From: a virus
Taxonomy: Duplodnaviria; Heunggongvirae; Uroviricota; Caudoviricetes
Reading direction: 5' to 3' (one strand)
DNA: 9,695 bases
Virus record (IMG/VR): IMGVR_UViG_2529292907_000010
Position 1 is the first letter of the stretch, and each line of letters opens with the position of its first letter. Below, in pieces: positions 2,578 to 5,605 of this stretch. The notes beneath the pieces were generated by a model that made no database searches, was not told where the DNA came from, and saw only the letters and a program-made list of their open reading frames with translations. The translations under genes and the position numbers were made by a program.

Positions 2578-2763
2578 TTACTTAATTATGTAATTCATAC
2601 CCGAACTCTCTGTTGACAGCCTTCTTCTGCAGGCTTCAATAACCCACGCTGAAAAGTTTCCTGAACCTTTCAGATCAAGAGCGATGTTAATTTGTTCAAT
2701 CATCTGGTTTGGAAATCGGATGTTGCGGGTTGTTGTTCTGCGGGTTCTGTTCTTTGATGACAT
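2578..2763 (-). CDS. Arc/MetJ-like ribbon-helix-helix (RHH) DNA-binding protein, 61 aa
   Basis: Segment NIRFPNQMIEQINIALDLKGSGNFSAWVIEACRRRL follows the RHH pattern (beta-strand N-x-R-[FW]-P, helix A, Gly-containing turn, helix B) and aligns by eye with P22 Arc (NLRWPREVLDLVRKVAEENGRSVNSEIYQRVMESF). Inverted repeats lie upstream of its start on the minus strand. Confidence 0.55.
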   Translation of the reverse strand: MSSKNRTRRTTTRNIRFPNQMIEQINIALDLKGSGNFSAWVIEACRRRLSTESSGMNYIIK

Positions 2764-2818
2764 AATGTTTCCCCATATTCAGTGTTGCTGATTTGTATTA
2801 TCTGAAGTTGCTTTTACG

Positions 2819-2841
2819 TTAATTTGATGCAGATCAATTAA
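2819..2841. promoter_or_regulatory. Imperfect inverted repeat TTAATTTGAT-gcag-ATCAATTAA, candidate operator for the adjacent RHH gene
   Basis: Arms of about 10 bp around a central GCAG, located 56-78 bp upstream of the RHH start codon (2763, minus strand). RHH repressors commonly autoregulate through such repeats. Confidence 0.3.
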
Positions 2842-2918
2842 TACGATACCTGCGTCATAATTGATTATTTCTCGTGGTTTGATGGCGTACACACATGTTG
2901 TGATAAACCTTATATAGA

Positions 2919-2933
2919 TGATAATCATTATCA
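2919..2933. promoter_or_regulatory. Perfect 7-1-7 palindrome TGATAAT-C-ATTATCA, identical to the core of the Fur-box consensus; function unproven
   Basis: TGATAATCATTATCA read at 2919-2933 matches the central 15 bp of GATAATGATAATCATTATC. A second ATAAT-tg-ATTAT palindrome is at 2857-2868. A plausible sigma70 promoter (-35 TTGTGA 2898-2903, 16-bp spacer, -10 GATAAT 2920-2925) overlaps it on the plus strand. It lies about 40 bp upstream of cosN and may instead be part of the conserved cos flank. Confidence 0.35.
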
Positions 2934-2970
2934 TTTTCGTGGGTCCTTTCCGGCGATCCGACCGGTTACG

Positions 2971-3157: not shown

Positions 3158-3706
3158 ATGAAGGTTAATAAAAAGAGGCTTGCCGAAATTTTCAACGTGG
3201 ACCCGCGGACGATTGAACGCTGGCAGTCTCAGGGACTCCCTTGCGCCTCCAAAGGTAGTAAGGGCATTGAATCTGTATTTGATACTGCCATGGCAATTCA
3301 GTGGTATGCGCAGAGGGAAACTGATATCGAAAACGAAAAGCTCCGCAAAGAACTGGACGATTTGCGTGCGGCAGCGGAGTCAGATTTACAACCCGGCACC
3401 ATTGACTATGAACGCTACAGGCTCACAAAAGCGCAGGCAGATGCGCAGGAACTGAAAAATGCCCGTGAAGACGGAGTAGTGCTGGAAACTGAACTGTTTA
3501 CCTTCATTCTGCAACGTGTGGCACAGGAGATTTCGGGGATACTTGTGCGTGTGCCGTTGACATTACAGCGTAAATATCCGGACATTTCACCATCACACCT
3601 TGATGTGGTGAAAACTGAAATCGCGAAAGCCTCCAATGTTGCAGCTAAGGCCGGTGAAAACGTGGGCGGGTGGATCGATGATTTCAGACGCGCAGAAGGC
3701 AGCTAA
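3158..3706 (+). CDS. Nu1: Terminase small subunit (gpNu1-like), N-terminal winged-HTH cosB-binding domain
   Basis: 182 aa. [28 protein letters not shown]...[49 protein letters not shown] is near-collinear with lambda Nu1 from memory. Confidence 0.95.
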
Positions 3707-5605
3707 TGCAGCCGGTGCGATAGCTACAGGGCTTTTATCTCTCATTATTCCTGTTCCACTGACGACAGTTCAGTGGGCCAATAAACATTATTACCTTCCT
3801 AAAGAGTCGTCTTATACCCCGGGGCGGTGGGAAACACTGCCGTTTCAGGTTGGCATCATGAACTGTATGGGCAACGATCTGATTCGCACGGTTAACCTGA
3901 TTAAATCTGCCCGTGTTGGTTATACAAAGATGTTGCTGGGAGTGGAGGCTTATTTTATTGAGCATAAATCACGCAACAGCCTTCTTTTTCAGCCCACGGA
4001 CTCAGCTGCTGAAGATTTTATGAAATCTCATGTTGAGCCAACGATAAGGGATGTTCCTGCATTGCTGGAGCTGGCTCCATGGTTCGGAAGAAAACACCGC
4101 GATAATACGCTCACCCTGAAGCGTTTTTCCTCCGGTGTGGGGTTCTGGTGTCTGGGTGGTGCGGCAGCAAAAAACTACCGTGAAAAATCCGTGGATGTGG
4201 TCTGTTATGACGAGCTTTCCTCGTTCGAACCGGATGTTGAAAAAGAGGGTTCGCCAACCCTGCTGGGGGATAAACGTATTGAGGGCTCTGTATGGCCAAA
4301 ATCCATTCGCGGCTCGACGCCTAAAATCAAAGGCTCCTGCCAGATCGAAAAAGCCGCTAACGAGTCGGCACACTTCATGCGTTTTTATGTGCCCTGTCCG
4401 CACTGTGGGGAGGAGCAGTATCTGAAATTTGGCGATGATGCCTCGCCTTTCGGTCTTAAGTGGGAGAAGAATAAGCCAGAAAGTGTTTTCTACCTTTGTG
4501 AGCATCATGGCTGTGTGATCCATCAGTCTGAGCTTGACCAGAGTAACGGGCGGTGGATCTGTGAAAACACGGGCATGTGGACCCGTGACGGCCTGATGTT
4601 TTTCAGCGCCCGGGGTGATGAAATTCCGCCGCCGCGCTCCATCACTTTCCATATCTGGACGGCGTACAGTCCGTTCACCACATGGGTACAGATTGTCTAT
4701 GACTGGCTGGATGCACTGAAAGATCCCAACGGCCTGAAAACCTTTGTGAACACCACGCTGGGCGAGACCTGGGAAGAGGCTGTGGGCGAAAAACTCGATC
4801 ACCAGGTACTGATGGATAAGGTTGTGCGTTACACGGCGGCGGTGCCTGCCCGGGTGGTTTATCTGACGGCGGGCATTGACTCGCAGCGAAACCGTTTTGA
4901 GATGTATGTCTGGGGATGGGCTCCGGGAGAGGAAGCCTTTCTGGTGGATAAAATCATCATTATGGGGCGTCCCGATGAGGAAGAGACGCTGTTACGTGTG
5001 GATGCGGCGATCAACAAAAAATACCGCCATGCAGACGGAACCGAAATGACTATTTCTCGTGTCTGCTGGGACATCGGGGGGATCGATGGCGAAATCGTTT
5101 ATCAGAGGTCAAAAAAACACGGTGTTTTCCGGGTGCTGCCGATAAAAGGCGCATCTGTCTATGGCAAGCCGGTGATCACCATGCCAAAAACCCGCAATCA
5201 GCGGGGCGTGTATCTGTGTGAAGTGGGGACGGACACCGCAAAGAAATTCTCTATGCCCGTATGAAAGCCGATCCCACGCCTGTGGATGAAGCCACGTCGT
5301 ATGCCATCCGTTTTCCTGATGATCCGGAGATTTTTTCGCAGACAGAGGCGCAGCAACTGGTCGCGGAAGAGCTTGTGGAGAAGTGGGAAAAAGGAAAGAT
5401 GCGTCTGCTGTGGGATAACAAAAAGCGGCGTAACGAAGCGCTGGACTGCCTGGTGTATGCCTACGCGGCATTACGTGTGTCCGTGCAACGCTGGCAGCTT
5501 GATCTGGCTGTACTGGCAAAATCCCGGGAAGAAGAGACGACCCGGCCAACCCTTAAAGAACTGGCAGCGAAGCTGTCCGGAGGAGTGAATGGTTACAGTC
5601 GCTGA
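3678..5605 (+). CDS. A: Terminase large subunit (gpA-like), interrupted by an apparent 1-nt frameshift near 5240-5245; possible pseudogene or sequencing error
   Basis: Frame 0 (3678-5264) matches lambda gpA from ...[12 protein letters not shown] through ...[13 protein letters not shown], then stops. The homology continues in the -1 frame ([17 protein letters not shown]...[25 protein letters not shown]... to stop at 5603-5605). The switch occurs in GCAAAGAAATTC; one missing base would restore a single ~641-aa ORF. Likely start ATG 3678, overlapping the Nu1 3' end as in lambda. Confidence 0.88.

What the first reader, a model, noticed from the sequence alone, without database searches (positions are those of the whole stretch)
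2857..2933. Perfect Fur-box-like palindrome beside cos
TGATAATCATTATCA (2919-2933) is an exact match to the 7-1-7 core of the Fur consensus, and a second ATAAT-tg-ATTAT palindrome lies 50 bp upstream. It overlaps a plausible plus-strand sigma70 -10 (GATAAT) with a -35 TTGTGA at 16-bp spacing, so it could drive iron-repressed transcription across cos toward the head genes or regulate the island in the lysogen. It could also be part of the conserved packaging-termination flank (cosQ region) and only look like a Fur box. Either outcome would be informative.
Basis: partly seen in the sequence, partly recalled or inferred. Interest (0 to 1): 0.45.

Follow-up and report, generated by a model that had tools for sequence, protein, structure and literature searches.

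The report
Conserved Fur-binding site beside lambda cosQ
The palindrome is a real binding site for the iron-sensing repressor Fur, already known from E. coli K-12 prophages as the nohA/nohB Fur site; it sits against the DNA-packaging signal of most lambda-like phages, and what Fur does there is still unknown.

Summary
In detail: TGATAATCATTATCA lies at 2919-2933, 7 bp left of cosQ (2941-2947) of a defective lambdoid prophage with a phage-21-type terminase. It is not chance; the two best Fur-consensus scores in the window overlap here (17/19 and 15/19).

It is already known. Lambda and the K-12 Qin prophage carry the identical 15-mer, and Chen et al. 2007 gel-shifted the Qin site (nohA, 22.3 bits). 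The DLP12 copy (nohB, 25.3 bits) came from the 1994 Fur titration assay. Fur ChIP-exo in CFT073 peaks on the homologous box, and flanking genes there rise 4-8 fold in a fur mutant.

I did not find one point in the literature. The box, extended into a Fur-type hexamer array, sits 3-8 bp left of cosQ in 18 of 29 cos lineages with unrelated left flanks, including phi80 and N15. It is not a defined cos subsite, and 11 lineages lack it.

The second palindrome is not Fur-like. K-12 shows no ChIP-exo peak and no derepression.

Best reading: a selected Fur operator attached to the cos module, most likely repressing or blocking local transcription. A role in packaging is not excluded.

The parts
2919..2933 (.). 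Perfect 7-1-7 Fur core palindrome TGATAATCATTATCA
   Evidence: Identical in lambda (L002 2784-2798, which is lambda bp 48452-48466 by offset from the annotated cos) and in K-12 Qin. Chen 2007's nohA site coordinate maps to its centre.
2920..2938 (-). Best 19-bp Fur box register, GAAAATGATAATGATTATC, 17/19 to consensus
   Evidence: It is the highest score in the window.
2914..2932 (+). Overlapping 19-bp Fur register, 15/19, shifted 6 bp
   Evidence: This matches the two overlapping sites 6 bp apart that Chen 2007 reported for nohA.
2912..2936 (.). Extent of cross-lineage conservation: hexamer array nnnnAT|GnAAAT|GATAAT|n|ATTATC|ATTT
   Evidence: Profile over 18 lineage representatives; columns -7/-6, -3 to -1 and +16 to +18 are conserved although they were not used for selection.
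2934..2940 (.). Variable spacer (TTTTCGT) between the box and cosQ
   Evidence: The spacer length is 3-8 bp across lineages, and it is polymorphic within the lambda-type lineage.
2941..2947 (+). cosQ, GGGTCCT, the packaging termination signal
   Evidence: Annotated as cosQ at the homologous position in the phage 434 record. The 7-bp definition is given in PMC4669245.
2971..2982 (+). Cohesive-end sequence GGGCGGCGACCT (core of cosN)
   Evidence: Aligns to the annotated 'cos site' of lambda DE3.
2898..2925 (+).
   Evidence: 9/12 matches, no more than chance. The spacing is created by the insertion at about 2904-2910 and is absent from lambda, 434, DLP12 and Qin.
2904..2910 (.). 7-bp insertion relative to lambda (approximate placement)
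   Evidence: Alignment gaps. It adds a GATAAA hexamer 18 bp upstream of the box, in phase with the array (10/14 to the 15-mer at 2901).
2857..2868 (.). Second palindrome ATAAT-TG-ATTAT; not Fur-like
   Evidence: At most 11/19 to the Fur consensus. It is part of the inverted repeat 2833-2845/2853-2865. It is invariant within the lambda-type lineage and lies in the lineage-specific left flank, which other lineages do not share.
2578..2763 (-). YlcI/YnfO-family (DUF3950) gene, the left neighbour, transcribed away from cos
   Evidence: ORF. Annotated in the near-identical S88 prophage and in K-12.
3158..3706 (+). Terminase small subunit, the right neighbour; box centre lies 232 bp upstream
   Evidence: The translation is the same as the CFT073 TerS ORF. 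This is the same geometry as nohA at -233.

Best explanation
The palindrome is the core of a high-affinity operator for the host ferric uptake regulator Fur. It is an array of about five GATAAT-like hexamers (about 2912-2936), enough for two or three Fur dimers.

The array is an inherited, selectively maintained accessory of the left flank of the lambda-type cos site. It lies 3-8 bp before cosQ and is the same element long known in K-12 as the nohA/nohB Fur site.

Shown: the sequence match, the homology to experimentally bound sites, and conservation across phage lineages. Inferred: in iron-replete cells Fe2+-Fur occupies the array and acts as a local repressor or roadblock of transcription in the AT-rich spacer around cos, in both directions. 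It would keep adjacent accessory genes and the terminase/head operon quiet in the lysogen and release them when iron is scarce.

My estimates are about 0.9 that this DNA binds Fur, about 0.7 that Fur binding is the selected property, and about 0.4 that the consequence is transcriptional.
For: The sequence scores 17/19 and 15/19 in overlapping registers, the top two scores in the window.

Homology: Qin carries the identical 15-mer. Its centre, NC_000913.3 position 1636600, equals Chen's 1634624 plus the 1976-bp offset between genome versions. DLP12 differs only at the central N.

Published binding: the nohA oligo shifts with 150 nM Fur and was selected in vivo. nohB is predicted at 25.3 bits (rank 3) and nohA at 22.3 bits (rank 10) among E. 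coli Fur clusters, and nohB is credited to the 1994 Fur titration assay.

In vivo: CFT073 ChIP-exo peak P53 (1424699-1424711, iron-replete only) lies on TGATAATTATTCTCG, 6 bp from cosQ. The flanking genes C_RS26755, C_RS07340 and C_RS07370 change by +2.9, +2.3 and +2.1 log2 in the fur mutant.

Conservation: 18 of 29 lineages defined by unrelated far-left flanks keep a match with 3 or fewer mismatches, 3-8 bp from cosQ, against 0 of 2929 control positions in the far flanks. Columns outside the 15-mer used for selection are also conserved with 6-bp periodicity. Within the lambda-type lineage the only common polymorphism inside the 15-mer is the central N, while the segments on both sides vary. 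phi80, N15 and a Citrobacter prophage carry the box.
Against: Neither K-12 site has a Fur ChIP-exo peak in MG1655 or W3110. This cannot be blamed on multi-mapping, because the two copies differ at 10 positions within 30 bp either side of the box. No peak is listed at lambda DE3's cos in BL21(DE3).

In MG1655, nohD, nohA and ybcW are unchanged in the fur mutant. In W3110, ynfO, ylcI and nohD go down, on very low counts.

No conserved -35/-10 is associated with the box on either strand. Eleven of 29 lineages lack the box, some of them with ordinary 21- or lambda-type TerS genes.

Derepression in CFT073 could be indirect, for example prophage induction in a fur mutant. Only one of the five genes in the terminase unit passed the regulon criteria.
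Confidence: 0.5

Rival explanations
1. Packaging accessory. Fur bound just before cosQ helps terminase finish a chromosome. The motor arrives from the lysis-gene side and meets the box immediately before cosQ and cosN. A bound Fur array would slow or position it, as IHF at I1 assists cosB.
For: The box travels with cosQ/cosN regardless of what lies to its left, and regardless of whether the left gene points leftward or rightward. In N15 and phi80 a rightward gene ends at or just before the box, with N15 gp59's stop codon inside it, so it is not an operator for a leftward gene there. The variable 3-8 bp spacing fits a roadblock better than a phased architectural element. From my own memory, not checked here: mutations that suppress cosQ defects map to the portal and terminase and were interpreted as slowing translocation.
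Against: The cos literature I could read defines termination requirements as cosQ (7 bp), cosN and I2, with nothing left of cosQ. Eleven lineages with lambda-type cosQ/cosN lack the box. fur was not among the 57 hits of the lambda Keio screen, while ihfA and ihfB were. There is no experimental link between Fur and packaging.
Confidence: 0.12
2. In this window the Fur box overlaps a real sigma-70 promoter (TTGTGA-16-GATAAT) that drives iron-repressed transcription across cos into the terminase and head genes.
For: The hexamers and the 16-bp spacing exist here. The 7-bp insertion that creates the spacing is shared by a sub-lineage of prophages. In CFT073 one gene of the terminase-side unit is derepressed in the fur mutant.
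Against: A 9/12 match occurs at the rate expected by chance. The spacing is 9 bp in lambda, 434, DLP12 and Qin, and CFT073 has a different upstream sequence altogether. So this promoter cannot explain conservation of the box. nohD and nohA are not derepressed in MG1655. The terminase large subunit here is frameshifted, so such a transcript would have no packaging function.
Confidence: 0.1
3. Fur decoy. During lytic replication, a hundred or more copies of one of the strongest Fur sites titrate Fur, as multicopy plasmids do in the Fur titration assay. This derepresses host iron uptake to the phage's benefit.
For: The site was discovered because cloned copies titrate Fur in vivo. It ranks among the strongest predicted Fur clusters.
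Against: A decoy could sit anywhere in the genome, so this does not explain the fixed position 3-8 bp from cosQ. No data were found on Fur-regulon expression during lambda growth.
Confidence: 0.08
4. The palindrome is conserved for a reason unrelated to Fur, such as another protein or a DNA or RNA hairpin, and Fur binding is incidental.
For: There is no detectable occupancy in K-12 or BL21(DE3) chromosomes. The A-tract, palindrome and T-tract resemble a weak bidirectional terminator, and the plus-strand hairpin folds at -9 kcal/mol with z = -2.4.
Against: Conservation follows the Fur hexamer pattern, including the free central N and the flanking GnAAAT/ATTTT hexamers. The stem is AU-only, the scan called no terminator, and the minus-strand hairpin is -3.2 kcal/mol and not significant. 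There is no IHF consensus and no Rfam family here. Fur does occupy the CFT073 copy.
Confidence: 0.1

Closest known systems
nohA (Qin) and nohB/nohD (DLP12) Fur sites of E. coli K-12
   Same: These are homologous DNA. The 15-mer is identical in Qin and differs from DLP12 only at the central N. The position is the same, about 233 bp upstream of the terminase small subunit homologue and 6-7 bp left of cosQ.
   Different: The window has a 7-bp insertion just upstream and a phage-21-type cosB and TerS to the right. The papers I could read describe the K-12 sites as promoter-region Fur sites of noh genes and do not relate them to lambda cos.
Lambda cosQ / R4 region
   Same: It is immediately adjacent and co-inherited. 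The phi80 GenBank feature 'cosQ; aka R4 region' (46084-46138) physically covers the box.
   Different: cosQ proper is the 7-bp GGGTCCT. The box lies outside it and is missing from 11 of 29 lineages that keep cosQ and cosN.
IHF site I1 in lambda cosB
   Same: It is a binding site for an abundant host DNA-binding protein embedded in the cos region. It is conserved in many but not all lambda-like phages (N15 has a simpler cosB).
   Different: I1 binds a different protein, lies on the other side of cosN, and has a demonstrated role in packaging initiation. No such role is known for the Fur box, and there is no IHF consensus at the box.
Fur box at the stx1 promoter of Shiga-toxin phages
   Same: It is a phage-borne Fur operator that makes a prophage gene respond to iron (own knowledge, not checked here).
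   Different: The stx1 box overlaps a defined promoter of a defined cargo gene upstream of the lysis genes. The cos-side box has no conserved promoter or cargo gene.

Membership tests
Fur operator (E. coli Fur box) | Match to the 19-bp consensus, 7-1-7 core and hexamer array | tested here: met
   14/14 on the 7-1-7 core. 17/19 and 15/19 in registers 6 bp apart, the top two scores in the window. The array extends beyond the core in 18 lineages.
Fur operator (E. coli Fur box) | Fur binds the DNA in vitro | not testable with these tools
   Published gel shift for the Qin nohA oligo, whose site centre maps onto the identical 15-mer. The oligo sequence itself was not available. This exact window sequence has not been tested.
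Fur operator (E. coli Fur box) | Fur occupies the site in vivo | tested here: inconclusive
   Literature data re-mapped here. A ChIP-exo peak lies on the homologous box in CFT073. There is no peak in MG1655, W3110 or BL21(DE3), although the K-12 copies are uniquely mappable. In vivo titration on plasmids is positive.
Fur operator (E. coli Fur box) | Adjacent genes respond to Fur or iron | tested here: inconclusive
   CFT073 flanking genes rise by +2.1 to +2.9 log2 in the fur mutant. MG1655 shows no change, and W3110 shows decreases on tiny counts.
Lambda cos subsite (cosQ/cosN/I2/cosB) | Belongs to a sequence defined as required for packaging | tested here: not met
   The box lies outside the 7-bp cosQ. 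No element left of cosQ is named in the cos literature I could read. It is absent from 11 of 29 lambda-type cos lineages. The primary cosQ papers were not available.
Lambda cos subsite (cosQ/cosN/I2/cosB) | Conserved position relative to cosN across lambda-like phages | tested here: met
   The box ends 3-8 bp left of cosQ in 18 lineages, including lambda, 434, phi80, N15 and a Citrobacter prophage.
Sigma-70 promoter | -35 and -10 hexamers at 16-18 bp, conserved among relatives | tested here: not met
   The match is 9/12 and no commoner than in shuffles. The spacer is 9 bp in lambda, 434, DLP12 and Qin. The -35 columns carry less than 0.4 bits.
Intrinsic terminator | GC-rich stem followed by a U-tract | tested here: not met
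   The stem is AU-only and is not called by the scan. The minus-strand fold is not significant. By contrast, box-less lineage 3 has a real terminator at -20.2 kcal/mol in this position.
IHF binding site | WATCAANNNNTTR consensus | tested here: not met
   No match with up to 1 mismatch lies between 2252 and 3043.

The most novel reading that the evidence does not exclude
Fur is an unrecognised host accessory factor of the lambda-type cos site. The conserved Fur array just upstream of cosQ makes a cos-linked step depend on the cell's iron state. The candidate steps are termination of packaging (Fur acting as a speed bump for the incoming terminase motor), passage of late transcription across cos, or handling of the right DNA end, which enters the cell first.
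Probability: 0.12. Interest if true: 0.75.

Novelty: already known. Interest (0 to 1): 0.33.

Why it matters
As a Fur site it adds nothing new. The homologous K-12 sites have been in the Fur literature since 1994, and the identical core sequence has been gel-shifted.

What may be worth a small experiment is the context. One of the strongest Fur sites in E. coli sits 6 bp from cosQ in lambda itself and is kept in that place in 434, phi80, N15 and most lambda-type prophages, even where everything to its left has been replaced. No function is known, and I found no paper connecting it with cos.

If Fur affects packaging termination or late transcription across cos, it would link iron status, a host-environment signal, to virion production in the family that includes Shiga-toxin phages. 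If it only damps stray transcription, it is a minor detail of prophage housekeeping.

Tried and rejected
1. The genome-contig scan with GGGTCCT-N22-GGGGCGGCG (16 specified bases) mostly returned chance hits in high-GC genomes. Only the Citrobacter locus L039 was useful, and L009 (Klebsiella) was also a chance match.

2. I first explained the missing K-12 ChIP-exo peaks by multi-mapping between DLP12 and Qin. I rejected this because the copies differ at 10 positions within 30 bp either side of the box, and the longest shared exact run over the box is 14 bp.

3. The idea that the box is the operator of a leftward accessory gene is rejected as a general explanation. Box-bearing lineages have either leftward or rightward left neighbours, and in N15 and phi80 a rightward gene ends at or just before the box.

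4. The idea that box-less cos sites are all satellites is rejected. Lineages 5, 7, 10 and 23 have 21- or lambda-type TerS genes, and lineages 3 and 8 have another Nu1-family TerS.

5. I found no support for a weak terminator, an IHF site or a known RNA family.

6. Other prophage-located Fur peaks turned out to be unrelated to cos. CFT073 P103 lies in a lysis-cassette pseudogene, and Sakai P27 and P60 lie inside tape-measure genes.

7. Several sources were not available: both primary cosQ papers, Vassinova and Kozyrev 2000, and the supplements of Chen 2007 and Beauchene 2015. A search for Fur box with terminase and prophage found nothing relevant.

8. The old CFT073 locus tags C_RS07340 and C_RS26755 are no longer in the current annotation, so their strand and position could not be fixed. 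A minus-strand ORF for a small signal-peptide protein starting about 100 bp left of the box is a candidate.

Full report
**What the window is.** The window is part of a lambdoid prophage of E. coli and is 99.8% identical to chromosomes of many extraintestinal strains such as S88. The gene order runs from the lysis genes to a leftward YlcI/YnfO-family gene (2578-2763). Next come the non-coding cos region, the terminase small subunit (3158-3706) and large subunit, and then the head genes. Left of cosN the DNA resembles lambda at about 88% identity. Right of cosN, cosB and TerS diverge from lambda's. The TerS protein matches the CFT073 prophage TerS and what I recall of phage 21 gp1 (the phage 21 assignment is my own knowledge). 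The terminase large subunit is split into two ORFs (3636-5264 and 5261-5605). In the near-identical S88 prophage it is annotated as frameshifted, so this copy is probably defective.

**The observation.** TGATAATCATTATCA is at 2919-2933. A match with up to two mismatches is expected 0.02 times in shuffles of the window. Against the classical 19-bp consensus, the two best scores among 9677 positions overlap here: 17/19 at 2920-2938 on the minus strand and 15/19 at 2914-2932 on the plus strand, 6 bp apart. The box ends 7 bp before cosQ (GGGTCCT, 2941-2947) and 37 bp before the cohesive end (2971-2982). The second palindrome exists at 2857-2868 but reaches at most 11/19 against the Fur consensus. 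It belongs to a separate inverted repeat at 2833-2865. The promoter-like TTGTGA-16-GATAAT exists, but such matches are no commoner than in shuffles.

**It is the known nohA/nohB Fur site.** Lambda (DE3 record) has the identical 15-mer. By offset from the annotated cos site this is lambda bp 48452-48466, 6 bp left of cosQ. Phage 434 and DLP12 differ only at the central base, and Qin is identical.
- Chen et al. 2007 (PMC2189734) list nohB at 25.3 bits (rank 3) and nohA at 22.3 bits (rank 10) among predicted Fur clusters of E. coli K-12.
- They report two overlapping nohA sites 6 bp apart at position -233.
- They show that the nohA oligo shifts with 150 nM Fur.
- They note that nohA was recovered by the in vivo selection of Vassinova and Kozyrev 2000, and they credit nohB to the Fur titration assay of Stojiljkovic et al. 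1994.

I checked the mapping. nohA moved by +1976 bp between genome versions. Chen's 1634624 therefore becomes 1636600, the exact centre of the Qin palindrome (1636593-1636607). The DLP12 coordinate maps likewise. In the window the box centre is 232 bp upstream of TerS, the same geometry.

**In vivo data are mixed.** Gao et al. 2023 (PMC10164565) did Fur ChIP-exo and fur-mutant RNA-seq in nine strains.
- In CFT073, peak P53 (1424699-1424711, iron-replete only) lies on TGATAATTATTCTCG, a two-mismatch version of the box 6 bp left of cosQ of a prophage.
- Three flanking genes are listed as CFT073-specific Fur-regulon members, at +2.9, +2.3 and +2.1 log2 in the fur mutant. The sign convention was checked against entC and fepA.
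- In MG1655 and W3110 neither cos-side site has a peak. In MG1655, nohD, nohA and ybcW do not change. In W3110, ynfO, ylcI and nohD fall, on counts of a few reads.
- No peak is listed at lambda DE3's cos in BL21(DE3).

I first put the K-12 negatives down to multi-mapping, but the two copies differ at 10 positions within 30 bp of the box, so that excuse fails. The sites bind Fur in vitro and titrate it from plasmids, but chromosomal occupancy depends on the strain or the context.

**The box is a conserved companion of cosQ.** I collected 205 lambda-type cos sites from viral contigs and fetched loci, using the pattern GGGTCCT-N22-GGGGCGGCGACC and, separately, TerS homology. I grouped them by the sequence 45-160 bp left of cosQ, which gave 29 lineages with unrelated far-left flanks.
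- Eighteen lineages have a match with three or fewer mismatches to the 7-1-7 motif, always ending 3-8 bp from cosQ. Eleven have nothing, with six or more mismatches. None of 2929 control positions in the far flanks reaches that threshold.
- Across the 18 representatives, T1, A3, A5 and T11 are invariant, and G2, T4, T13 and C14 are present in 17 of 18.
- Columns that were not used for selection are also conserved: A at -7, T at -6, AAA at -3 to -1, and TTT at +16 to +18. Columns further left carry less than 0.4 bits.
- The pattern nnnnAT|GnAAAT|GATAAT|n|ATTATC|ATTTT has the 6-bp periodicity of Fur operators. The hexamer and 7-1-7 models come from my own knowledge (Escolar 1998; Baichoo and Helmann 2002).
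- Within the lambda-type lineage (38 unique sequences), the segment just upstream and the box-cosQ spacer are highly polymorphic. The only common polymorphism inside the 15-mer is the central N.
- phi80 has a perfect box, N15 has CGATAACTATTATCG, and a Citrobacter prophage has TGATAATTAATATCG, all directly against cosQ.
- The phi80 GenBank feature 'cosQ; aka R4 region' spans the box. Feiss's open-access papers define cos as cosQ (7 bp), cosN, I2 and cosB, and name nothing left of cosQ.

**What it is not.**
- It is not the operator of one particular neighbouring gene. Box-bearing lineages have left neighbours in either orientation, and in N15 the stop codon of a rightward gene lies inside the box.
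- It is not required for a lambda-type cos. Box-less lineages include prophages with ordinary 21- or lambda-type TerS genes.
- It is not a conserved promoter.
- I found no support for a terminator, an IHF site or a known RNA family.
- fur was not among the hits of the lambda Keio screen, whereas ihfA and ihfB were.

**Most likely mechanism.** The DNA binds Fe2+-Fur as an array of two or three dimers. This rests on homology to bound sites and on the sequence, at about 0.9. Fur binding is what selection maintains, because the conservation profile follows Fur's preferences. This is an inference, at about 0.7.

The consequence is least certain. I favour local, iron-dependent repression or roadblocking of transcription in the AT-rich cos spacer, in both directions. 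CFT073 shows derepression on both sides, and this is what Fur arrays do elsewhere. I put this at about 0.4. The K-12 data argue that any such effect is weak or context-dependent.

The fixed position next to cosQ irrespective of left-hand content is the one fact that the transcriptional reading does not explain well. That fact keeps the packaging reading alive.

**Verdict.** As a Fur site it is already known. The systematic association with cosQ across lambda-like phages is a modest, testable addition that I did not find in the papers I could search.

Noticed in passing
window 3636-5605: The terminase large subunit is split into two overlapping ORFs (3636-5264 and 5261-5605). The near-identical prophage in E. 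coli S88 is annotated 'frameshifted', so this prophage is probably packaging-defective.
   Followed up: partly
L198 8860-9600; also L134, L162, L164: Two cosQ-cosN copies face each other about 500-770 bp apart. In L198, capsid and decoration genes end in a strong terminator (-20.2 kcal/mol) that abuts the first cosQ. A 515-bp AT-rich spacer with CCGGACAT repeats follows, then an inverted cos. Neither copy has a Fur box. It may be a capsid-encoding satellite.
   Followed up: partly
L005 155-481 (CFT073 NC_004431.1 1423654-1423980): The CFT073 prophage with a Fur ChIP-exo peak at its cos-side box carries a TonB-family lipoprotein-like gene (C_RS07335) about 700 bp left of the box. A minus-strand ORF for a small signal-peptide protein starts about 100 bp left of the box. 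Both look like iron-related cargo next to a Fur site.
   Followed up: no
window 2971 (cosN) as a mosaic joint: Left of cosN the window is lambda-like, about 88% identical through the ylcI-like gene. Right of cosN, cosB and TerS diverge from lambda's, so the recombination joint lies at or near cosN.
   Followed up: partly
window 2833-2865: The inverted repeat ATCAATTAATACG / CGTCATAATTGAT lies upstream of the ylcI-like gene and is invariant in 38 unique lambda-type sequences. The gene product looks like a ribbon-helix-helix protein by eye (NIRFP...NFSAWVIEACRRRL), so this could be its operator.
   Followed up: no
window 2779-2934, minus strand: A 51-aa ORF starts just inside the right edge of the palindrome (ATG at 2934-2932). 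Some phage records list 'hypothetical protein' features under this stretch, possibly this ORF. It is AT-rich, its far-left sequence is not shared by other lineages, and it is probably not a gene.
   Followed up: no
NC_002695.2 915639 and 1960053; NC_004431.1 3050982: Published Fur ChIP-exo peaks fall inside the tape-measure genes of Sakai prophages Sp3 and Sp10, and inside a YdfR pseudogene in a CFT073 lysis cassette. None is near a cos, and no explanation is evident.
   Followed up: partly
NC_000913.3 580594-580608 and 1636593-1636607: Two of the strongest predicted Fur sites in K-12 bind Fur in vitro or titrate it from plasmids. Yet they show no ChIP-exo peak in MG1655 or W3110, although they are uniquely mappable. 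Occlusion in the silenced cryptic prophages is one possible reason.
   Followed up: partly
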